DNA of 64,000 bases, from NCBI GenBank assembly GCA_964432875.1, contig CAYSPJ010000002.1, positions 54,473-118,472 of the forward strand, read 5' to 3'. Made by a program: the position numbers and the translations under genes. This stretch comes from an uncultured Phaeodactylibacter sp. GTDB lineage: Bacteria; Bacteroidota; Bacteroidia; Chitinophagales; Saprospiraceae. Positions 19,138-31,541 of the stretch are shown here, one piece after another. Every line of letters starts with the position of its first letter. Position 1 is the first letter of the stretch. The notes beneath the pieces were generated by a model. The model did no database searches and was not told where the DNA came from. It was given only the letters and a program-made list of their open reading frames with translations.

Positions 19138-21606
19138 ATGATTGAACTTCAGAGCAACCCCCAACTCGAGCTCGCTTTTGACTACGTCAGTTATACCAAT
19201 AAGAACATCTTCCTGACGGGCAAAGCCGGCACAGGCAAGACGACCTTTTTGAATACCCTTAAGCACCAGCCGACCAAGCGTATGGCCGTGGTAGCCCCTA
19301 CTGGAGTGGCGGCAATTAATGCCGGCGGCATGACCATCCACTCCTTTTTCCAGTTGCCCTTTGGCCCCTTCTTGCCAGGGAGTGCACAGGATGCCAGCCG
19401 ACAGCGCCGCTTCAACCGCGAAAAAATCCGCCTGATCAAGAGCCTTGACCTGCTAGTCATTGATGAAATCAGTATGGTGCGTGCTGACTTGCTGGATGCC
19501 ATCGATGACGTGCTGCGGCGCTACCGGCGCAATCCGGCGCCTTTTGGCGGACTGCAGTTGCTCATGATCGGCGACCTGCACCAGCTGCCCCCCGTTGTGA
19601 AGGATGATGAGTGGGATATGCTGCGGCCCTACTACCAAACGCCTTACTTTTTTGGCAGCCGTGCCTTGCAGCAGACCCAGCCTGTCGCCATCGAGCTGAA
19701 ACACATCTACCGCCAGTCAGACCAGACCTTCATCGAGCTGCTGAATAAAGTGCGCGACAACCAACTTGACGAGGAAGTGTTGGAATCTTTGAATAGCCGC
19801 TTTATCCCCAGCTTCCAACCGCCGCCTGAGCAGCCCTACATCACGCTGTCTTCCCACAACGCCTCGGCCAGGTCTATCAATGCCCAGAAACTAGCTGCCC
19901 TGCCTGGAGCTTTGCTTAGCTACAAGGCTTCTATCAAAGGGGACTTCCCGGCTCACGCCTACCCTACCGACGAAGTACTGGAGTGCAAAGTCGGCGCTCA
20001 GGTCATGTTCGTCAAAAATGACCCCTCGCGCGAAAAGCTGTTTTACAATGGTAAAATCGGCAAAATAACGCGGGTGAAAGAAGCGTCCATCTACGTTAAA
20101 TGCCCGGATGATTTTGAAGAGATTGAAGTTGTGCAGGCAGAATGGAACAATGTAAAATACACCCTGAATGAACAGACCAAGGAGGTCGAGGAAGAGATCA
20201 TCGGCACCTTTACCCAATATCCGCTCAAGCTGGCCTGGGCCATCACCATCCATAAAAGCCAGGGCCTGACCTTTGAGCGGGCCATCATCGATGCCCAGGC
20301 AGCCTTTGCCCATGGGCAAGTCTATGTAGCCCTTAGCCGCTGTAAGAGCTTTGAGGGCATCGTGCTGTGTTCCCGTATCACGCTCTCCAGCGTCAAAACC
20401 GACTCGACCGTGCGCAGCTATACCGAAGCTGCCGAGCGCAATGCGCCTGATGAAAACCACTTGCGCCATTCCAAGATCAATTATCAGCGCGATTTGATTT
20501 ATGATTTGTTTGGCTTCAAAGCGCTGAAGCGGGCTTTTGAGCGGATGAACCGGGTATTCCTGGAGCACGAAAACGCCCTCTTGCAAGGCAGCTTCCAGCA
20601 GTTTAAAACGCTGGCGGTGGATACAGAAACCCAGCTCTTTACCGTGGCCGGGAAATTTCAGGGGCAGTTGCAGCATCACCTTCTTCAGCCTGGCCTGCCG
20701 GAAGAGAACGAGGCGCTCCAGGAGCGCATCCGCAAGGCCTGCGCCTGGTTTGTCGACAAGCTTGAGCAAACCTTGCTACCTGCAGCCCAAGCCATCCCCA
20801 TCGTGACCGACAATAAAGCCATCCGTAAAACGGCGATGGAGGCACTAGAAAGCTTGCAGCAAGAGCTCTTCATCAGCAAAGCCTGCCTGCGGGCTGCCCA
20901 ACCGGGCTTTTCCACTCATAAACACCTGCGCGCTAAAGCCGATGCAGAAATAGATTTCAAAGCAACCCCCGGTGCGGCTACTTTGGCAAAGGCATTCGAC
21001 ACAGTACCCAAAGGCACAGCCCATCCGGAGCTCTACAGCCAATTGCAAACATGGCGCGACGATACAGCAGAGATGGAAGGCGTACCAGCTTATCAGGTGC
21101 TGCCGACCAAATCACTGCTCGAGCTGGCCGAGCTGCTGCCCGCTAACCTGCCCGCTCTCAAAAAGATTCATGGCCTGGGCCCCGCTAAAACCAAGCGCTA
21201 TGGCCCGGAAATACTGGAAATCATCCAGGCGTATTGCATCTCCAAAGGCATCGAATCCACTCAATTGGCCTTAGCCCCGGCAAAGGCCAAACCGCCGAAG
21301 AAAGAGGACACTAAAAAAGTCAGTTTTGAGCTTTTTAAAGCCGGAAAAAACCTCGATGAGATCGCCCAGGAGCGCGGCTTCGTGCGTACTACTATCGAGG
21401 GGCACCTGGCTCACTACGTCGCTTTAGGCGAGTTAGATGTCTTCCAGGTGCTGGATGAGGATAAGATCAGGGCTATCATGGATTTCTTTATTGAAAATGC
21501 GACCAACTCCACCGCCGAAGCAAAAGCCGCGCTCGGTGAAGATTTCTCCTATGGCGAGATCAAAATGGTGCTGAAGTTTATGGAGCGCAATGCGGAGGAT
21601 ATTTGA
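19138..21606 (+). CDS. Pif1/RecD-family SF1 helicase with C-terminal HRDC and HTH domains
   Basis: Walker A GKAGTGKTT, Walker B LLVIDEISMV, MIGDLHQLPPV, and ITIHKSQGLTFERAIID...VALSRC. The HRDC-like part is LQTWRDDTAEMEGVPAYQVLPTKSLLELAE...IHGLGPAK, and the terminal HTH-like part is LDEIAQERGFVRTTIEGHL. Confidence 0.85.
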   Translation: MIELQSNPQLELAFDYVSYTNKNIFLTGKAGTGKTTFLNTLKHQPTKRMAVVAPTGVAAINAGGMTIHSFFQLPFGPFLPGSAQDASRQRRFNREKIRLIKSLDLLVIDEISMVRADLLDAIDDVLRRYRRNPAPFGGLQLLMIGDLHQLPPVVKDDEWDMLRPYYQTPYFFGSRALQQTQPVAIELKHIYRQSDQTFIELLNKVRDNQLDEEVLESLNSRFIPSFQPPPEQPYITLSSHNASARSINAQKLAALPGALLSYKASIKGDFPAHAYPTDEVLECKVGAQVMFVKNDPSREKLFYNGKIGKITRVKEASIYVKCPDDFEEIEVVQAEWNNVKYTLNEQTKEVEEEIIGTFTQYPLKLAWAITIHKSQGLTFERAIIDAQAAFAHGQVYVALSRCKSFEGIVLCSRITLSSVKTDSTVRSYTEAAERNAPDENHLRHSKINYQRDLIYDLFGFKALKRAFERMNRVFLEHENALLQGSFQQFKTLAVDTETQLFTVAGKFQGQLQHHLLQPGLPEENEALQERIRKACAWFVDKLEQTLLPAAQAIPIVTDNKAIRKTAMEALESLQQELFISKACLRAAQPGFSTHKHLRAKADAEIDFKATPGAATLAKAFDTVPKGTAHPELYSQLQTWRDDTAEMEGVPAYQVLPTKSLLELAELLPANLPALKKIHGLGPAKTKRYGPEILEIIQAYCISKGIESTQLALAPAKAKPPKKEDTKKVSFELFKAGKNLDEIAQERGFVRTTIEGHLAHYVALGELDVFQVLDEDKIRAIMDFFIENATNSTAEAKAALGEDFSYGEIKMVLKFMERNAEDI

Positions 21607-25663: not shown

Positions 25664-26194
25664 ATGCGCATCTATCTCATCGGTTTCATGGGCAGCGGCA
25701 AATCGCATACCGGGCGGCGGCTGGCTGCCTTGCTGCAATATCCCTTTATCGAGCTGGATCAATGGATAGAAGAAGCAGCCAGCATGGATATACCAGCTAT
25801 ATTTGCCAACAAGGGCGAGGCCTGGTTTCGGGAGCAGGAGCAACAGGCGTTATGGCGCACTGCTTCCTATGCCCAGGCAGTCATTTCCTGCGGCGGCGGC
25901 ACGCCTTGTTTTTTCAACAATATGGAATGGATGAATCAGCAAGGGCTGACCGTTTATCTGCACACTCCGGCCGACATCCTCCTGAGTCGCTTGCGCCAGG
26001 AAACAGCCCAGCGCCCGCTGCTTGCCGGACAGGGGGAGCAAGCCTTGCAAGTTTTAATCGAAAAAAAACTGGCCGAACGAGAAGGATATTACCAGCAAGC
26101 CAGTGTCATCTACTCCCAAAAGACTGGAGAGGAGGATATCGCCAGGGAGTTGTGCCGATATTTAGGGGGAGCTAACCTATTGCATGGCGTATGA
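25664..26194 (+). CDS. aroK: Shikimate kinase
   Basis: IYLIGFMGSGKSHTGRRLA P-loop, GGGTP, 176 aa. Confidence 0.88.
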   Translation: MRIYLIGFMGSGKSHTGRRLAALLQYPFIELDQWIEEAASMDIPAIFANKGEAWFREQEQQALWRTASYAQAVISCGGGTPCFFNNMEWMNQQGLTVYLHTPADILLSRLRQETAQRPLLAGQGEQALQVLIEKKLAEREGYYQQASVIYSQKTGEEDIARELCRYLGGANLLHGV

Positions 26195-26805
26195 AATCTG
26201 AGCAAGCGTTTAATGAAGCCGTAAAAATAGCCGGCATAGACTACGGCAGCAAACTGGCAGGCACTACAGCCATCGCCGCATTGGAGCCTGGGGGGCTCAG
26301 CTTCTGGCAAAGCAAGCCGAAACAAGATGCCGACCGCTTTATCCTGGAATGGGCAGCGGAATTTAGGCCGGAGCGGGCTTTTTTGGATGCCCCGTTAAGC
26401 CTGCCGGGCATATACCGCTATCCAGAACAGTACCAAGACCACTTTTACCGCCAGGGCGACCAGGCGCTGCGGGCCATGTCGCCCATGTTTTTAGGAGGCC
26501 TGACCGCGCGAGCCATGCGGTTGAAAAACCAGTTGGAAAGCATGGGGGTCGAGGTCCTCGAAGTCTATCCCGCCCATCTGGCCAAATTAATGAGCCTGGA
26601 TGTGCTGCAATACAAAAAGGGCCTGCCTCAGATTGCTGCCATCCTACCGATATTATCTGCACAGCTGCCGGGGCAGCCCCAAGTACCTCCCCTACCCTCC
26701 TGGCATCAAGTAGATGCCCTTCTGGCGTTGATTTCTGGCATTCGCTATCTCAAAGGGGAGCACCAGGCTTTTGGTGATCCACAAGAAGGCCTCATTATCG
26801 TGTAA
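26191..26805 (+). CDS. DUF429-like (predicted RNase H-fold) protein
   Basis: IAGIDYGSKLAGTTAIA, FLDAPLSLPG, EVYPAHL and HQVDALLALISG follow the DUF429 pattern. Its ATG overlaps the aroK TGA (ATGA at 26191-26194). Confidence 0.5.
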   Translation: MKSEQAFNEAVKIAGIDYGSKLAGTTAIAALEPGGLSFWQSKPKQDADRFILEWAAEFRPERAFLDAPLSLPGIYRYPEQYQDHFYRQGDQALRAMSPMFLGGLTARAMRLKNQLESMGVEVLEVYPAHLAKLMSLDVLQYKKGLPQIAAILPILSAQLPGQPQVPPLPSWHQVDALLALISGIRYLKGEHQAFGDPQEGLIIV

Positions 26806-26847: not shown

Positions 26848-29800
26848 ATGGCATTCAAATTTTCCATCCCCTTCTTTGCATTCCGCTTGCACCTCCATCC
26901 TGGTTTAAGCCTGCTAGCCCCTTTGTCAGACCACCAGGCCTTGCGCATCGGGCAACCGCTGTCGGCCGTTGCAAAGCAGTATGCTGATGCTTTACAGCAG
27001 AAGGTACTGAACACGGGCAACTATCGCGCGGTGCTGGAAGAGTATCGGGAGGGCGATTTCTACCGGAGCGTGCTGGAGGCCAGCTTCCCCGCCGCGCCCG
27101 ACCGCCTCAGCTTTCCGGCTTTCAGCCTGGAATTCGACTACTATTTCAACCGGCAGGAAAAGGGTTATTGGGGGATAGTGCCAGCCCTGAAACTGGAAGC
27201 TTTTGCCGATGACGAGCCACAGCTCGCCGCGCTCTTGAAGGAAGCCGTACAGCTCGATTTTAGCCGGAAGAAACGGCTTCAAGCCGTGCAGGATATCGTG
27301 TCGGCTATTTGGTTTGAAAGCATCGAGCTAAAACAGCACGCCATTGACTTTGAAGCTTATACCCCTGCGGAATTAGAACTGTTGCAGGAGCAGCGCAAAA
27401 GCAATTTGCTGTCGGATGTAGCTACCTTGCTGGTCGTAAAAAGCCCCGCTTGCTATGGGATGGAAAAGGAGCTCGAGCAGTTGGTCAGCACACTTAAGAG
27501 CAAATTTGTGCGGAATGTGTTATTGGTAGGGCCTTCCGGGGTAGGTAAAACGGCATTAGTATGGGAATTGGCCCGGCAACAACGCCGGCGGCGGGTCAAA
27601 GAACAGTTTTGGGAAACGACAGCTTCTACCCTCATCAAAGAGTTGTCGCAAGAGATGGGTTGGCAGGAGAACCTTTCACAGCTCTGCCGGGAAATTAGCG
27701 GCAGCGACAACATCCTCTTCATCCGCAACCTGGCAGAACTATTCGAGGTAGGCATGTATGAAGGGAATTCAATCAGCATGGCTGATTACCTGGGCGCTTT
27801 CCTCAGCCGGGGGGAGATCACGATGATCTCGGAATGTACCGAAGAAGAGCTGGCACGCATCGAGCTGAAAAACCCGCAATACCTTTCCTTTTTCCAACAG
27901 ATCCACCTCAAAGCCCCGGAAGGGCAAGCGCTGGAAGCCATTATTTCACAAAAGGTACAGGATGTGGCACAGCTCCGGCAAACCGAAATCGAAGAAGAGG
28001 CCATCCGCGAAGCCATCCGACTGAGCCGCCGTTTTGAGCCCTACTCCGGCATGCCAGGAAAGCCCATCCGTTTCCTGGAAAGCCTATTGCTGGATAAAAA
28101 GCGTGTTGCGGGCCAGGATGCAGCCTCGATCAAGCTTTCTCGTTCGGAAGTGATCCACCGTTTTTGCCAGCAGACTGGTATCCCCCGTTTTATGGTTGAC
28201 CCCGCTATCCCGATGGACATCACGGCCATCAAAGCCGCTTTTAATAGCCAGTTGTTTGGGCAGGAAGCCGCCGTAGAAAGCGTAGTGGGTTTGTTAGCCG
28301 CCGTTAAAACCGCGCTTACCCGCATCGGTAAGCCGATTGCCTCTCTGCTTTTCCTGGGCCCCACCGGCGTGGGCAAAACCGAATTGGCCAAGGTGCTGGC
28401 GCAATTTATGTTTGGCGGGCGCGACCGCTTGACCCGCTTTGACATGAGCGAGTATTCCAACGCTTACTCCGTGCTCCGCCTCACCGGCGAGGGTTTCTTT
28501 TCGGAAGGCTTGCTCACCTCCGCCGTGCGGCGCGCACCTTTCAGTGTGTTATTATTTGATGAGATTGAGAAAGCCCACCCGCAATTCTTTGATTTGCTGT
28601 TGCAGATACTTGAAGGGCGATTGACCGACAGCCAGGGCAAGCTGGCCAACTTTTGCAGCACTATCATCATCATGACCTCGAATATCGGCGCGCAGAATCT
28701 GGCACAAAACCCCATTGGCTGGAAGCAACAAATATCCGGGCGGGAAGTGCAGCAGCACTTTATTACTGCTGCCGAGGACTATTTCCAGCCAGAGCTGTTC
28801 AACCGGATCGACAAGGTCATCCCTTTTACGCCCCTGGATCAGGATACCGTCCGGTTTGTAGTGGACCGGGAAATTCAATTAATCCGGCAAAGAGAGGGGA
28901 TCCGCTTCCGCCGCATGAACCTCCACATTGAAAACGAAGTGCTGGACTACTTGGGGGAGCAAGGCTATGACCCCCGGTATGGCGCCCGCCATTTGCAGCG
29001 CACCATCCGGGAATACCTGCTGACTCCCCTCTCCAGAGCATTAAATACCCAAGACATCGACGACCAGCTGGAAGTCGAGGTGCGGATGCGTGCCGGGCGG
29101 ATACAAATCGATATCGCCTCTGATCCCTTGGGGCTGGAGCTGCTTTTAGAAGAATATGGCCGGATTCAGCATTCCGACTATGCCAGCCGCCTGCGCCGTA
29201 AAATAGAACAGATCAAGGATGGCCATCTTTATACTCAGCTGATCAACGAACTTGCTTTTTTTGAACAAAAGCGGGCGGCCGCCAAACAACGTTTTTGGGA
29301 TAACTTGCCGGAGGCAAACCGCTACTCCGCTTTTCAGGAATCGAATCAGGAAGCAGAACACTTATACCAACGCATCCAAGACCTGGAGATGGGCTTTGCT
29401 ACTTCCTCTCTGGGCGTCGTGCCTTATAAACCCGCCTGGGAAAACGAGCTGCGCGCCTGGGAAGAGCGGCTCTTCGAATTCAAGCTCCGGCTTTGCTCCC
29501 GGTTGAACCCCGAGAACAATCAGTGTTGCTTGTCGATCTATGGCGCTGAGCCGGAGCCTCTGGTGCAGCTTTATACGAGCCTTTTTCAGGCGAAGGGGTT
29601 TCAATTTGAAGCCTACGGCGTCTGGTTCCGAGAAAGTTATTACAATGAAGAAGTGCTGGAACAAACGGATAAAGGCATCGCCCGGCACAAGCGCAAGCAG
29701 TACATTAAACAGATAATTGACATGGCAACCTGTTTGGCCCCATTCAACCCACCCGAACCTGGTGATGTGCTTTGGGGGGTGGAATTCACCATCAGCAGCC

Positions 29801-30096
29801 CTTGCGCCTACCTTTACCTCGAAGAGGAAGGGGGTGGGCAAAAATGGGAGGGCCGCGATGGGAAAGACCGCTTCTATATGGTGCTGGTCAGCAAAACGGT
29901 AGAAGAGACGCCCAACAAGTTACATCGCAAAGAATTTTATGAAAAAATGACCCCACGCCGGACGATTACACCCCAAGAGCTGAAAGATAGGGTTTACAAA
30001 ATCAACCGGGAATGCAACAAATCTGCCCTGCTCGGTTTTATTATGGAGAAACTGGATGAACGTTTCGCCGTCCAATTAGATAAAGAACTATTATGA
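26848..30096 (+). CDS. Atypical Clp/Hsp100-family double-AAA+ ATPase with novel N-domain and release-factor-like C-terminal extension
   Basis: NBD1: GPSGVGKT, but the Walker B reads ILFIRNLA. NBD2: GPTGVGKTELAKVLA, LLFDEIEKAH, IIIMTSNIG, FNRID, and D2-small RYGARHLQRTIREYL. There are about 215 unassigned N-terminal residues and about 330 extra C-terminal residues. Confidence 0.85.
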   Translation: MAFKFSIPFFAFRLHLHPGLSLLAPLSDHQALRIGQPLSAVAKQYADALQQKVLNTGNYRAVLEEYREGDFYRSVLEASFPAAPDRLSFPAFSLEFDYYFNRQEKGYWGIVPALKLEAFADDEPQLAALLKEAVQLDFSRKKRLQAVQDIVSAIWFESIELKQHAIDFEAYTPAELELLQEQRKSNLLSDVATLLVVKSPACYGMEKELEQLVSTLKSKFVRNVLLVGPSGVGKTALVWELARQQRRRRVKEQFWETTASTLIKELSQEMGWQENLSQLCREISGSDNILFIRNLAELFEVGMYEGNSISMADYLGAFLSRGEITMISECTEEELARIELKNPQYLSFFQQIHLKAPEGQALEAIISQKVQDVAQLRQTEIEEEAIREAIRLSRRFEPYSGMPGKPIRFLESLLLDKKRVAGQDAASIKLSRSEVIHRFCQQTGIPRFMVDPAIPMDITAIKAAFNSQLFGQEAAVESVVGLLAAVKTALTRIGKPIASLLFLGPTGVGKTELAKVLAQFMFGGRDRLTRFDMSEYSNAYSVLRLTGEGFFSEGLLTSAVRRAPFSVLLFDEIEKAHPQFFDLLLQILEGRLTDSQGKLANFCSTIIIMTSNIGAQNLAQNPIGWKQQISGREVQQHFITAAEDYFQPELFNRIDKVIPFTPLDQDTVRFVVDREIQLIRQREGIRFRRMNLHIENEVLDYLGEQGYDPRYGARHLQRTIREYLLTPLSRALNTQDIDDQLEVEVRMRAGRIQIDIASDPLGLELLLEEYGRIQHSDYASRLRRKIEQIKDGHLYTQLINELAFFEQKRAAAKQRFWDNLPEANRYSAFQESNQEAEHLYQRIQDLEMGFATSSLGVVPYKPAWENELRAWEERLFEFKLRLCSRLNPENNQCCLSIYGAEPEPLVQLYTSLFQAKGFQFEAYGVWFRESYYNEEVLEQTDKGIARHKRKQYIKQIIDMATCLAPFNPPEPGDVLWGVEFTISSPCAYLYLEEEGGGQKWEGRDGKDRFYMVLVSKTVEETPNKLHRKEFYEKMTPRRTITPQELKDRVYKINRECNKSALLGFIMEKLDERFAVQLDKELL

Positions 30097-31541
30097 ATGC
30101 AAGATTGATCGTTTTTTCGGCAGCGCTTATTGCTACTATGCTACCCTTCAACAGGCTGCAAGCTCAAGATGCCGAAAACAGTAATAAACACTATTGGGTC
30201 GCCTTTACTGACAAGGCCGGCTCGCCCTATAGCCTGGACCGGCCAGAGGAGTTTGTATCAGCGCGCGCCATTGCCCGGCGGCAGAGTCGAGGGATACCTT
30301 TTGCTGAAAACGACCTCCCGCCCAATCCTGCCTATCTGGATGCCCTGAAGGCCAAAGGGGCCACCATACACCATACTTCGCGCTGGCTGAATGCCGCAAC
30401 CATCCTCATCGACGAAGCCCAACTGCCTCTTATCGCGCAATTACCTTTCGTCGATACGTTTTTTTTCGCCGGCCCAGCTTATGATAAAGCGACGCATAAA
30501 AAGCCGGCTTTACAAATGGACAGCCTCCTGTCGCGACTCGTGGAAGGCGAACACTATGGCCATGGCGCTGCGCAGATCAAGCTGTTAAATGGCGATACCT
30601 TACATCAAATGGGCTTTAAAGGCAATGGTTTATTGATTGCCGTACTTGACGGCGGCTTTATCGGGGTAGAAGCAAGCCCTTTCTTTGACAGCTTGCGCGT
30701 GAACGGCCGCCTGCTGCCCGGCCGGGACTTCGTCAATCAGGGCAATGACCCTTACGGGCTGAGCACCCACGGCAGCAAAGTGCTCTCTACGATGGCGGCC
30801 AACGTCCCCGGCGTATTGGTCGGCACGGCTCCTTTCGCAACCTACGCCTGTGTGAAAACCGAAAACACCCAAACCGAATACCGCATCGAAGAATGCAATT
30901 GGGTAGCTGGACTGGAATACGCCGACAGCCTCGGCGCCGACCTTATCAATTCCTCCCTGGGCTATACTACTTTCGACGATACTGGCATGAACTATCAATA
31001 CGACAATCTGGACGGGCAGAGCTCGGTGGCCAGCCTGGCGGCTGATATCGCTGCAGCAAAAGGCATCCTGGTCGTCACCAGCGTCGGCAATGAGGGGAGC
31101 TCAAAGTGGAAGTATATCGGCATACCCGCCGATGCCACCCTGGCCTTTTCCATTGGGGCCACTGATTTGCGCGGCAAGCGGGCTTCTTTCAGTTCGGTAG
31201 GCCCCACACCTAAGGGCCTCATCAAGCCTGACGTGGTAGCCCCCGGTGCCTGGGTGGCCTTGGCCGATGCCTACTCTTTCCGCGTCGGCCCAGGATCTGG
31301 CACTTCTTTTGCTTCGCCCATCCTGGCTGGCCTGGCTGCCTGCCTCTGGGAAGCCTTCCCCGGCAAGACCAACCTGGAAATCATGGAGGCTATCCGCCAG
31401 AGTGGCAGCGCCGCAACAAGCCCGGACAATGAAATCGGTTATGGACTGCCGGATTTTGGCAAGGCTTACCGGCTGTTGAGCAGTGTACTGCCGTCGGTCA
31501 GCCCAAGCAAACCCCTGGTCAGCCCATTGCCTCAAGATTAG
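30093..31541 (+). CDS. Secreted S8 (subtilisin-family) serine peptidase with I9-like propeptide
   Basis: Signal peptide MNARLIVFSAALIATMLPFNRLQAQ. Catalytic triad contexts are IAVLDGGF (Asp), STHGSKVLS (His) and GSGTSFASPILAG (Ser). Its ATG overlaps the upstream stop (ATGA). Confidence 0.88.
   Translation: MNARLIVFSAALIATMLPFNRLQAQDAENSNKHYWVAFTDKAGSPYSLDRPEEFVSARAIARRQSRGIPFAENDLPPNPAYLDALKAKGATIHHTSRWLNAATILIDEAQLPLIAQLPFVDTFFFAGPAYDKATHKKPALQMDSLLSRLVEGEHYGHGAAQIKLLNGDTLHQMGFKGNGLLIAVLDGGFIGVEASPFFDSLRVNGRLLPGRDFVNQGNDPYGLSTHGSKVLSTMAANVPGVLVGTAPFATYACVKTENTQTEYRIEECNWVAGLEYADSLGADLINSSLGYTTFDDTGMNYQYDNLDGQSSVASLAADIAAAKGILVVTSVGNEGSSKWKYIGIPADATLAFSIGATDLRGKRASFSSVGPTPKGLIKPDVVAPGAWVALADAYSFRVGPGSGTSFASPILAGLAACLWEAFPGKTNLEIMEAIRQSGSAATSPDNEIGYGLPDFGKAYRLLSSVLPSVSPSKPLVSPLPQD

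What the first reader, a model, noticed from the sequence alone, without database searches (positions are those of the whole stretch)
26848..29184. Clp/Hsp100 double ring with a dead first ring, an intact second ring bearing an IGW tripeptide at the ClpP-docking-loop position, and an unassigned 215-aa N-domain
NBD1 keeps Walker A (GPSGVGKT, 228-235). However, its Walker B reads ILFIRNLA (289-296) where ClpA/B have ILFIDE-x-H, and the RRFQ arginine pair reads SFFQ (347-350). NBD2 keeps Walker A and B, sensor-1, the NRID arginine finger and sensor-2 GARHLQR. There is no ClpB-type M-domain. Just after sensor-1, PIGW (622-625, nt 28711-28722) sits where ClpA has its IGL loop, which would predict docking to a ClpP-like peptidase. 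The N-terminal 215 residues do not resemble the Clp_N repeat.
Basis: partly seen in the sequence, partly recalled or inferred. Interest (0 to 1): 0.6.

Follow-up and report, generated by a model that had tools for sequence, protein, structure and literature searches.

The report
Clp-type ATPase with release-factor tail
This gene encodes a 1082-residue relative of the Clp protein-unfolding motors whose first ATPase ring is permanently switched off and whose overlooked tail is a copy of a translation release factor without its catalytic part. It is one of three co-inherited paralogues of an apparently undescribed machine that may link protein unfolding, ClpP degradation and the ribosome.

Summary
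It runs 26848-30096 and encodes 1082 aa.

**Confirmed**
- D1 keeps an invariant Walker A. Its Walker B is a conserved R-N (117 and 116 of 120 orthologues), and it has lost the arginine finger and the pore tyrosine.
- D2 has all catalytic motifs.
- There is no M-domain.
- The N-domain is beta-rich and is not Clp_N.
- IGW aligns residue for residue with the AGF ClpP-docking motif of S. aureus ClpC, and is conserved as [IVL]-[GS]-[WL].

**New**
- Residues 759-1082 fold like a class-I release factor, closest to RF2. The top 47 Foldseek PDB hits are all release factors, and hhalign against RF2 gives P 3.5e-7. The tail lacks the GGQ domain and the SPF loop.
- The genome holds two more atypical paralogues, B (756 aa, no tail) and C (about 1100 aa, homologous tail).
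- A, B and C occur in the same 15-17 of 31 family genomes and are absent together from 14. They form an A-C-B operon in Acidobacteriota, and A-C tandem genes are seen in Planctomycetota.
- The downstream subtilase is secreted and is rarely a neighbour, so it is not a partner.

**Untested inference:** ClpP docking and any action on ribosomes.

The parts
26848..30096 (+). Whole gene, 1082 aa plus stop (paralogue 'A' of the trio)
   Evidence: ORF list and translation. The N-terminus MA(F/Y)K..IPF is conserved in orthologues. 120 orthologues of about 1060-1110 aa.
26848..27447 (+). N-domain (res 1-200), family-specific, beta-rich, roughly two beta-beta-beta-alpha-beta units
   Evidence: No Pfam hit even at E 10. 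AF2 strands 3-16, 21-25, 71-80, 92-120, 156-170. Homologous to the N-domain of paralogue B (hhalign P 3.3e-6, 181 columns). Only a weak profile hit to the HicB-like TTHA1756 (E 0.23).
27448..28167 (+). D1 AAA+ module (res 201-440): binds but cannot hydrolyse nucleotide
   Evidence: Aligns to ClpC/ClpB D1. Walker A at nt 27529-27552 is invariant. Walker B position at nt 27712-27735 reads ILFIRNLA with conserved R-N. SFFQ at nt 27886-27897 replaces the Arg pair. The pore-loop KYR position reads SQE.
28210..29127 (+). D2 AAA+ module with D2-small domain (res 455-760): the only motor
   Evidence: Pfam AAA_2 1.5e-45 and ClpB_D2-small 4.5e-15. Walker A nt 28357-28380, Walker B nt 28549-28575, sensor-1 nt 28675-28683, Arg finger R653 nt 28804-28806 and sensor-2 nt 28981-29001 are all invariant in 120 orthologues. 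The pore loop is shortened but keeps an aromatic pair at 550-551 (Y/F 104, F/Y 81 of 120).
28714..28722 (+). I623-G624-W625, tip of the helix-loop-helix at the ClpP-docking (P-loop) position
   Evidence: Aligned to AGF 671-673 of S. aureus ClpC. Conserved as [IVL][GS][WL]. Coil between helices 615-618 and 631-645 with lower pLDDT. Paralogues B and C keep [IV][GS][FY] and [LVI]G[FY].
29122..30093 (+).
   Evidence: AF2 of res 756-1082: pLDDT 92.5, pTM 0.85. Foldseek PDB ranks 1-47 are all RF2, RF1 or mtRF1, best E 8.9e-8. hhalign against an RF2 alignment gives 93% probability and P 3.5e-7; controls give P 0.2-0.39. 10 of 12 weak PDB profile hits are RFs.
29131..29505 (+). RF domain-1-like helical bundle (res 762-886) with the RF2-type F-W motif (F816 W817, nt 29293-29298)
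   Evidence: Helices 762-791, 793-818, 820-854, 863-886. FW aligns to the RF2 'P.FW.D' motif. F816 and W817 are kept in at least 90% of sequences.
29509..30093 (+). RF domain-2/4-like alpha/beta body (res 888-1082). Keeps the E-x-G-x-(H/Q)-(R/K) strand (E994, G996; nt 29827-29835) and the domain-4 R1038...D1047 motif. Lacks the GxGGxE helix tip and the SPF/PxT loop.
   Evidence: Alignment to RF2 through GVHRLV. E994, G996 and R1038 are invariant in the 84-sequence alignment, and D1047 is kept in at least 90% of it. The SPF loop is 5 residues shorter and has no SPF.
29896..29955 (+). 20-residue linker (res 1017-1036) standing where RF1/RF2 carry the roughly 95-residue GGQ peptidyl-hydrolase domain 3
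   Evidence: Comparison with the genome's own RF2, which has SPF at 182 and GGQ at 227. The AF2 model shows no domain between strand 1007-1015 and strand 1036-1040.

Best explanation
The gene encodes subunit 'A' of an ancient, apparently undescribed three-paralogue (A/B/C) Clp/Hsp100-like machine.

**Shown**
- A ClpA-like double AAA+ core without an M-domain.
- D1 keeps a perfect P-loop but has Arg-Asn in place of the Walker-B Asp-Glu, no arginine finger and no pore tyrosine.
- D2 keeps every catalytic motif and an aromatic pore loop.
- A conserved hydrophobic-Gly-aromatic tripeptide sits at the ClpP-docking loop.
- The C-terminus is a release-factor (RF2-like) domain-1 plus domain-2/4 shell. 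It lacks the GGQ hydrolase domain and all stop-codon-reading elements.
- A, B and C are co-inherited.

**Inferred**
- D1 is a nucleotide-bound assembly ring.
- D2 alone threads substrate.
- The loop docks the ring on the single ClpP of the cell.
- The codon-blind, hydrolysis-dead RF module is the targeting device. Its most likely target is the ribosomal A-site or factor-binding region, so that ribosome-bound proteins or nascent chains are extracted and degraded.

**My odds**
- Architecture: above 0.9.
- Functional trio: about 0.85.
- ClpP docking: about 0.55.
- Ribosome targeting: about 0.4-0.5.
- The whole chain together: about 0.3.
For: **Core and motifs.** The full-length AF2 model has pLDDT 86, and Foldseek finds ClpC/ClpA/ClpB at E about 1e-40, led by ClpC chains from ClpC-ClpP complexes.

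**P-loop position.** IGW lies on AGF 671-673 of ClpC. The tripeptide is conserved amid variable flanks in A and independently in B and C.

**RF tail.** Foldseek ranks 1-47 are all release factors. hhalign gives P 3.5e-7 against controls of 0.2-0.39. The RF2-type FW, ExGxH and R...D motifs are kept.

**Tail distribution.** The tail profile finds 686 clusters at 50% identity. Among the best 150 listed, every full-length hit is about 1030-1140 aa with the tail at the C-terminus. The shorter hits look like fragments.

**Trio.**
- In 31 family genomes, A is present in 16, B in 17 and C in 16, all within the same 17 genomes. The other 14 have none.
- Fisher P is 5.7e-8 for A against B and 8.6e-7 for A against C.
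- Tandem A-C-B genes occur in a Pyrinomonadaceae contig, and A-C in a Planctomycetota contig.
- A, B and C are each a supported group spanning phyla.
- The C tail is homologous to the A tail (P 1.9e-6).
Against: - No experiment exists, and no interaction was tested.
- TM-scores to RFs are low (0.2-0.39) because domain 3 is missing and the domain arrangement differs.
- Single-sequence Pfam and the PCRF model do not detect the tail.
- The Gly of IGW is Ser in 27 of 120 orthologues, and Trp is not a documented ClpP-loop residue.
- Thermus ClpB has K-G-W at the same place without binding ClpP.
- Six 320-residue tails next to the D2 face might hinder ClpP docking. The full-length pTM of 0.54 says nothing about this.
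- The distribution of ArfB in the family does not complement the trio (12 of 17 against 8 of 14), and RqcH is absent everywhere. There is therefore no phyletic hint of a ribosome-rescue role.
- An earlier check within this scan lowered the ribosome-tethered reading to about 20%.
Confidence: 0.3

Rival explanations
1. This is a ClpP-coupled unfoldase, but the RF-like tail no longer has anything to do with ribosomes. It would be a recycled fold serving as an adaptor or substrate-binding, oligomerisation or autoinhibitory domain, functionally comparable to the N-domains or M-domains of other Hsp100s.
For: The P-loop tripeptide is conserved in A, B and C. All codon-reading and catalytic RF elements are gone. 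No phyletic complementarity with ArfB or RqcH was found. The flanking genes are unrelated to translation.
Against: The tail keeps both RF domain 1 and the domain-2/4 body, with several RF-specific motifs invariant over phyla. The only known role of this fold is ribosome binding (PMC6514570).
Confidence: 0.27
2. This is a ClpP-independent remodeller, a ClpB/ClpV-like segregase. The A/B/C ring would use D2 to pull factors, subunits or nascent chains off a ribosomal or other complex without degradation, and the IGW loop would be merely structural.
For: Thermus ClpB has G-W at the same position. Ser replaces Gly in 22% of orthologues. Paralogue B lacks any aromatic residue in its D2 pore loop, which is unusual for a processive ClpP feeder. 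The bulky tails lie near the D2 face.
Against: Three divergent paralogue families all keep a hydrophobic-G-aromatic tip between variable flanks. The closest structural matches are ClpP-bound ClpC chains. The core is ClpA-like, without the M-domain that Hsp70-coupled disaggregases need.
Confidence: 0.25
3. The ATPase works with the S8 subtilase encoded immediately downstream (ATGA overlap). This would be an IetAS-like AAA+/protease pair or a dedicated protease partner.
For: There is a 4-nt stop/start overlap at 30093-30096. Weak PADLOC hits exist to IetA/IetS and to DolB/PDC-M37B models.
Against: The subtilase starts with a typical Sec signal peptide (MNARLIVFSAALIATMLPFNRLQAQ), so it leaves the cytoplasm. 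It follows the ATPase in only 3 of 25 orthologous loci. The IetS similarity is marginal (E 1e-5 over about 90 residues), and the PADLOC hits to the ATPase cover only the generic D2 module.
Confidence: 0.03

Closest known systems
ClpA / ClpC (class-I Clp/Hsp100 unfoldases that dock on ClpP)
   Same: Both have two AAA+ modules, with D2 of the AAA_2 type plus a D2-small domain. The ClpA model aligns in one stretch with no M-domain. A hydrophobic-Gly-aromatic tripeptide lies exactly at the P-loop tip (IGL in ClpA, AGF/VGF in ClpC). The best structural matches are ClpC and ClpA chains.
   Different: - The score is 324 bits against the ClpA equivalog cut-off of 993.
- There is no Clp_N domain, so no ClpS or MecA platform.
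- D1 cannot hydrolyse ATP and has no pore tyrosine.
- The D2 pore loop is 5 residues shorter.
- The loop ends in Trp.
- The protein carries a 320-residue RF-like tail.
- It is one of three obligatorily co-occurring paralogues.
Class-I peptide chain release factors RF2/RF1 (PCRF plus RF-1 domains)
   Same: The tail has the RF domain-1 helical bundle with the RF2-type FW motif. It also has the domain-2/4 body with the ExGxH(R/K) strand and the R...D motif of domain 4.
   Different: - The GGQ domain 3 is replaced by a 20-residue linker.
- The SPF/PxT loop and the GxGGxE helix tip that read the stop codon are missing.
- The tail falls below the Pfam PCRF detection threshold.
- It is covalently attached to an AAA+ motor.
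- The review of RF diversity lists RF1, RF2, ArfB, PrfH, ICT1, C12orf65 and MRPS35, but no such form (PMC6514570).
Cdc48/p97 with Vms1 (eukaryotic ribosome quality control)
   Same: This is a functional analogy only: a double-ring AAA+ unfoldase combined with a release-factor-like module (PMC6514570).
   Different: Vms1 belongs to the unrelated aeRF1 fold, is catalytically active, and is a separate protein recruited through a VIM motif. Here the RF2-type module is inactive and fused. No homology is implied.
NSF D2 / other AAA+ rings that bind but do not hydrolyse ATP (from general knowledge)
   Same: One of the two rings keeps the P-loop but lacks hydrolysis residues, and presumably serves hexamer assembly.
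   Different: Here the silent ring is D1, not D2, and the replacement residues (Arg-Asn) are themselves conserved.

Membership tests
Class-I Clp/Hsp100 (double-ring) superfamily | Two tandem AAA+ modules, D2 of AAA_2 type followed by the D2-small domain | tested here: met
   Pfam AAA_2 1.5e-45 and ClpB_D2-small 4.5e-15. D1 aligns to ClpC/ClpB D1 (i-E 8.6e-11). Foldseek E about 1e-40 to ClpC/ClpA/ClpB.
Class-I Clp/Hsp100 (double-ring) superfamily | Catalytically competent D1 (Walker B DE, arginine finger, pore-1 tyrosine) | tested here: not met
   RN replaces DE, S-F replaces R-R, and SQE replaces KYR. All three are conserved in 120 orthologues.
Class-I Clp/Hsp100 (double-ring) superfamily | Clp_N (double Clp repeat) N-terminal domain | tested here: not met
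   No Clp_N hit for the whole protein or for residues 1-201 at E up to 10. The predicted N-domain is beta-rich, whereas Clp_N is all-helical (general knowledge).
ClpA (TIGR02639 equivalog) | Score above the curated cut-off | tested here: not met
   323.6 bits against a cut-off of 993.
ClpA/ClpC/ClpX ClpP partners | Hydrophobic-Gly-Phe/Leu tripeptide on the flexible P-loop | tested here: inconclusive
   IGW aligns with AGF 671-673 of ClpC and is conserved. However, Trp at the third position and Ser at the second (27 of 120) are not documented ClpP-loop residues.
ClpA/ClpC/ClpX ClpP partners | Physical binding to and activation of ClpP | not testable with these tools
   One clpP is present in the genome. 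No interaction data are available.
ClpB/Hsp104 disaggregases | Coiled-coil M-domain inserted in D1-small; score above the equivalog cut-off | tested here: not met
   About 10 residues stand where ClpC has 66 and ClpB more. The score is 313 bits against a cut-off of 1232.
Class-I release factor (RF1/RF2), for residues 759-1082 | Domain-1 helical bundle plus domain-2/4 alpha/beta body | tested here: met
   Foldseek ranks 1-47 are all RFs, best E 8.9e-8. hhalign P 3.5e-7 over 151 columns.
Class-I release factor (RF1/RF2), for residues 759-1082 | GGQ peptidyl-tRNA hydrolase domain 3 | tested here: not met
   A 20-residue linker stands in its place. The 'GGGQ' at 995-998 lies on the RF 'G-V-H-R' strand and is not conserved as GGQ.
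Class-I release factor (RF1/RF2), for residues 759-1082 | Stop-codon-reading elements (SPF/PxT loop, GxGGxE helix tip) | tested here: not met
   The loop is 5 residues shorter and has no SPF. The helix tip reads IYGA-EPEP instead of SGAGGTEA.
Class-I release factor (RF1/RF2), for residues 759-1082 | Pfam PCRF / RF-1 models above threshold | tested here: not met
   No hit at E up to 10 for the tail. A PCRF scan of the genome finds only the true RF1 and RF2.
Three-paralogue Clp-like system with RF tails (seen repeatedly in this scan; unpublished as far as I could find) | Paralogues A, B and C present together, with A and C carrying the RF-like tail and B not | tested here: met
   B lies on contig C156 (756 aa) and C on contig C43 (about 1100 aa) of the same genome. 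They co-occur in 31 genomes. The C tail is homologous to the A tail. Orthology to the A-C-B operon genes is shown.
Three-paralogue Clp-like system with RF tails (seen repeatedly in this scan; unpublished as far as I could find) | The three genes form one operon | tested here: not met
   In this genome the three genes lie on three contigs. They are operonic in Acidobacteriota (L034), and A-C are tandem in Planctomycetota (L027).
IetAS-type AAA+/S8 defence pair | Conserved adjacency of a cytoplasmic S8 peptidase and its ATPase | tested here: not met
   The S8 has a signal peptide and is adjacent in only 3 of 25 loci. The model hits are marginal.

The most novel reading that the evidence does not exclude
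A, B and C assemble into a mixed Hsp100 ring, which would be the first bacterial hetero-hexameric Clp unfoldase. Its codon-blind, GGQ-less RF2 modules would insert into the A site or factor-binding site of stalled, damaged or idle ribosomes. The D2 motor would then extract the nascent chain or a trapped factor and pass it through the conserved P-loops to ClpP. This would be a bacterial functional counterpart of eukaryotic Cdc48-Vms1 ribosome quality control, present in Bacteroidota, Acidobacteriota, Planctomycetota and other phyla.
Probability: 0.15. Interest if true: 0.9.

Novelty: new variant of a known kind. Interest (0 to 1): 0.68.

Why it matters
Clp/Hsp100 machines and release factors are two of the best-studied protein families in bacteria. 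A conserved covalent fusion of the two is not in the literature I could search. The tail profile finds 686 clusters at 50% identity in several phyla.

The protein gives a natural example of a Hsp100 whose D1 ring is locked in a nucleotide-bound, non-hydrolysing state by conserved substitutions. That bears on the long debate about the division of labour between D1 and D2.

The tail is also the first GGQ-less RF1/RF2-type shell. It is either a secondary loss, or a relic of the codon-recognition domain before the hydrolase domain was inserted into it (the insertion is described in PMC6514570).

If the tail still binds ribosomes, the system would be a new ATP-driven branch of bacterial translation quality control. 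That is directly testable by pull-downs and cryo-EM.

Tried and rejected
1. **Subtilase partner (IetAS-like).** Rejected because the subtilase has a signal peptide and is adjacent in only 3 of 25 loci.
2. **Clp_N or any Pfam/NCBIfam/PADLOC family for the N-domain.** Nothing was found. The profile against PDB gave only a weak hit to the HicB-like TTHA1756 (E 0.23).
3. **Single-sequence and plain-HMM detection of the RF relationship.** This failed or was marginal. Only profile-profile and fold comparison gave clear signals.
4. **Detection of paralogues B and C by HMMs of the A N-domain and tail.** This failed. hhalign links the A and B N-domains and the A and C tails. A against C N-domains (P 0.006) and the C tail against RFs (P 0.001) stay weak.
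5. **Complementary phyletic pattern with ArfB or RqcH as a test of a ribosome-rescue role.** None was found.
6. **Conserved accessory genes beside the operons.** None; the neighbours are an aminotransferase, a radical SAM protein and a SpoIIE-TPR protein.
8. **Literature searches for a described Clp-RF fusion.** Nothing was found.
Full report
**1. The observation**

The frame that starts at 26848 does not stop at 29184. It is open to 30096 and encodes 1082 residues.

- ILFIRNL lies on ILFIDEL, the D1 Walker B.
- SFFQ lies on (R)RFQ, the D1 arginine fingers.
- The D1 pore-loop K-Y-R position reads S-Q-E.
- I623-G624-W625 lie on A671-G672-F673 of S. aureus ClpC.

The cryo-EM study of MecA/ClpC/ClpP identifies that AGF (671-673) as the P-loop tip. 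It docks into the ClpP H-site, and mutating it abolishes binding (PMC12521514).

About ten residues span the place where ClpC has its 66-residue linker/M-domain. The NCBIfam ClpA model aligns in a single stretch (203-731), while the ClpB, ClpV, ClpK and ClpG models split in two. The lack of an M-domain is therefore confirmed. All equivalog scores are far below their cut-offs (ClpA 324 against 993), so this is not ClpA, ClpB, ClpC or ClpV proper.

**2. The degeneracy is selected, not decay**

A search of 5.8 billion proteins returned orthologues of 47-68% identity. All are about 1060-1110 aa long and come mostly from Saprospiraceae/Lewinellaceae. In 120 of them:
- The D1 P-loop G-x-x-G-x-G-K-T is invariant.
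- The Walker-B positions are R in 117 and N in 116.
- F349 is kept in 120.
- Every D2 motif is invariant or nearly so: Walker A and B, TSN, R653, GAR.
- The tripeptide is I/V/L in 120, G in 76 and S in 27, then W 88, L 23, I 5, F 2. The flanking positions are highly variable.

The D2 pore loop is five residues shorter than the canonical GAPPGYVGY but keeps an aromatic pair (Y/F 104, F/Y 81). D1 therefore looks like a nucleotide-binding, non-hydrolysing, non-gripping ring, and D2 like the sole motor.

**3. Structure**

AlphaFold2 on an 84-sequence alignment gave pLDDT 86.2 and pTM 0.54.
- Residues 619-630, which hold IGW, are coil of lower confidence between helices 615-618 and 631-645. This is the helix-loop-helix expected of a P-loop.
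- Foldseek finds ClpC, ClpA and ClpB at E about 1e-40, led by ClpC chains from ClpC-ClpP complexes.
- The N-terminal 200 residues are beta-rich (strands 3-16, 21-25, 71-80, 92-120, 156-170) and match no Pfam, NCBIfam or PADLOC model.
- Clp_N is all-helical (general knowledge), so it is excluded. The only lead is a weak profile hit of residues about 101-142 to the HicB-like protein TTHA1756 (E 0.23). I could not follow it up.

**4. The missed tail**

Notes from earlier stages of this scan said that relatives carry a GGQ-less release-factor-like tail. I treated this as a lead and tested it here.

Weak or negative results:
- Single-sequence Pfam finds nothing.
- A PCRF scan of the genome finds only the true RF1 and RF2.
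- A profile of 26 tails against PDB gives only weak hits, but 10 of 12 are release factors.

Clear results:
- hhalign of the tail profile against an RF2 alignment, built from genomes of the same phylum, gives 93% probability and P 3.5e-7 over 151 columns. Unrelated control alignments give P 0.2-0.39.
- AlphaFold2 of residues 756-1082 gives pLDDT 92.5 and pTM 0.85.
- Foldseek ranks 1-47 against the PDB are all RF2, RF1 or mtRF1, with best E 8.9e-8. TM-scores are low (0.2-0.39), as expected when one domain is missing and the open and closed arrangements differ.

By alignment the tail keeps:
- the RF domain-1 helices, with the RF2-type F-W motif (F816, W817);
- the strand E-x-G-x-(H/Q)-(R/K) (E994, G996);
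- the domain-4 motif R1038...D1047.

It lacks:
- the GxGGxE helix tip;
- the SPF/PxT loop, which is five residues shorter;
- the whole GGQ domain, replaced by a 20-residue linker (1017-1036).

The 'GGGQ' at 995-998 is a coincidence on the G-V-H-R strand and is not conserved. The module is thus codon-blind and cannot hydrolyse peptidyl-tRNA.

A profile search of 1.84 billion representatives finds 686 clusters at E up to 1e-3, and 440 at E up to 1e-10. Among the best 150 listed, every full-length hit is about 1030-1140 aa with the tail at the C-terminus. The shorter hits look like gene fragments.

**5. Genomic context**

The upstream genes are aroK and a DUF429 gene. Downstream lies an S8 subtilase whose ATG overlaps the stop (ATGA), and then a SusC/SusD pair. 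The subtilase begins with a typical signal peptide and follows the ATPase in only 3 of 25 orthologous loci. The marginal IetA/IetS and DolB hits therefore do not indicate a defence pair or a protease partner. The genome has a single clpP.

**6. A trio of paralogues**

Besides two ClpB genes and one ClpC-like gene (GVGF loop), the genome holds two more atypical double-ring genes.

| Feature | A (this gene) | B (contig C156) | C (contig C43) |
|---|---|---|---|
| Length | 1082 aa | 756 aa | about 1100 aa |
| RF-like tail | yes | no | yes, homologous to the A tail (hhalign P 1.9e-6) |
| D1 Walker A | canonical | canonical | G-K-H |
| D1 Walker B | R-N | x-[DN] | D-N |
| D2 pore-loop aromatic | conserved pair | none | partial |
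| P-loop tripeptide | [IVL][GS][WL] | [IV][GS][FY] | [LVI]G[FY] |

The B and C motif data come from 15 and 13 orthologues. The B N-domain is homologous to the A N-domain (hhalign P 3.3e-6). All three families have a complete D2 and a conserved hydrophobic-G-aromatic tip.

Co-occurrence and operon structure:
- In 31 genomes of the family, A is found in 16, B in 17 and C in 16, always within the same 17 genomes. The other 14 have none. The two exceptions are 79% and 90% complete assemblies.
- Fisher P is 5.7e-8 for A against B and 8.6e-7 for A against C.
- Carriers have larger genomes (mean 6.6 against 4.1 Mb), so the trio is accessory rather than essential.
- In a Pyrinomonadaceae contig the three genes are tandem in the order A-C-B. 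In a Planctomycetota contig A-C are tandem before the locus ends.
- In a tree of the AAA+ cores, A, B and C are each a supported group (98-100%) that spans phyla. They are separated from the genome's ClpB/ClpC by a long branch.

The trio is therefore old and is inherited as a unit. In this family the genes have simply been dispersed.

**7. Mechanism**

The shown facts and the inferred steps are set out under the best explanation. Three points add to them:
- ClpP docking is favoured because three divergent paralogue families keep the tripeptide, and because the core is ClpA-like.
- The only known role of the RF fold is ribosome binding, and inactive RF relatives that still bind ribosomes are known (PMC6514570).
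- The complementary degeneracies of A, B and C, together with their co-inheritance, suggest a mixed ring. This is speculation.

Counter-evidence:
- Trp and Ser variants are not documented in ClpP loops.
- Thermus ClpB has K-G-W at the same position.
- There is no phyletic complementarity with ArfB (12 of 17 against 8 of 14) or RqcH, which is absent throughout.
- There are no translation genes nearby.
- An earlier internal check put the ribosome-tethered reading at about 20%.

**8. Comparison and novelty**

The closest known families are ClpA/ClpC for the motor and RF2 for the tail. The protein fails defining features of each:
- For ClpA/ClpC: no active D1, no Clp_N, and a score below the equivalog cut-off.
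- For RF2: no GGQ domain, no codon-reading elements, and no hit to the Pfam models.

It works like a Clp unfoldase but is not a member of any named Clp subfamily. Four literature searches and the 2019 survey of release-factor diversity did not turn up this architecture. Absence from the searched library is not proof that it is undescribed. Several earlier reports of this same scan describe the family in other phyla. My tests here reproduce their core observations independently. They add the Saprospiraceae case, in which the operon is dispersed but the three genes remain strictly co-inherited.

**9. Verdict**

The real feature is a new variant of the Clp/Hsp100 kind: a D2-only motor with an RF-like tail, belonging to a three-paralogue system. 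The architecture is firm. The function, both ClpP coupling and ribosome targeting, remains inference.

Noticed in passing
window 30093-31541 (+): An S8 subtilase gene of 482 aa whose ATG overlaps the ATPase stop (ATGA). It has a clear Sec signal peptide and its best NCBIfam similarity is to mycosin-type proteases. It follows the ATPase in only 3 of 25 orthologous loci, so the translational coupling seems to be a local accident.
   Followed up: yes
own genome, contigs C156:4821-7140 (+) and C43:3147-6495 (- strand coordinates): Paralogues B (756 aa) and C (about 1100 aa) of the trio. C has a Walker A G-K-H in D1 (His in 11 of 14 orthologues) and a natural 'Walker-B trap' D-N. B has no aromatic residue in its D2 pore loop.
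   Followed up: partly
window 29830-29841 (res 995-998): The residues 'GGGQ' in the tail could be mistaken for the catalytic GGQ. They lie on the RF 'G-V-H-R' strand of domain 2, and orthologues mostly read G-x-H/Q here.
   Followed up: yes
31 genomes of the family (G000, G017-G046): Carriers of the trio have larger genomes (mean about 6.6 Mb) than non-carriers (about 4.1 Mb). RqcH (NFACT_N) is absent from the whole family. An ArfB-like short RF-1-domain ORF is present in 20 of 31 genomes, with no relation to the trio.
   Followed up: partly
own genome, contigs C52 and C13: Two full-length canonical ClpB paralogues (871 and 896 aa) in one genome, in addition to a ClpC-like gene (C1, 851 aa, GVGF loop) and a single clpP (C176).
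   Followed up: no
window 19138-21606 (+): An 822-aa PIF1-like helicase fused to HRDC and HTH_40 domains.
   Followed up: no
window 25664-26805 (+): The shikimate kinase gene (aroK) and a DUF429 gene overlap by 4 nt directly upstream of the ATPase. aroK plus the divergent DUF1573 and YbbR genes are the most conserved neighbours of the ATPase in Saprospiraceae. DUF429 is present in only 2 of 25 loci.
   Followed up: partly
window 26848-27447 (res ~101-142): The second half of the N-domain (E-x-G-Y-W-x-x-V-P-x-L, then a helix) resembles the HicB/UPF0150 beta-beta-beta-alpha pattern, with a weak profile hit to PDB 2yzt (E 0.23).
   Followed up: partly
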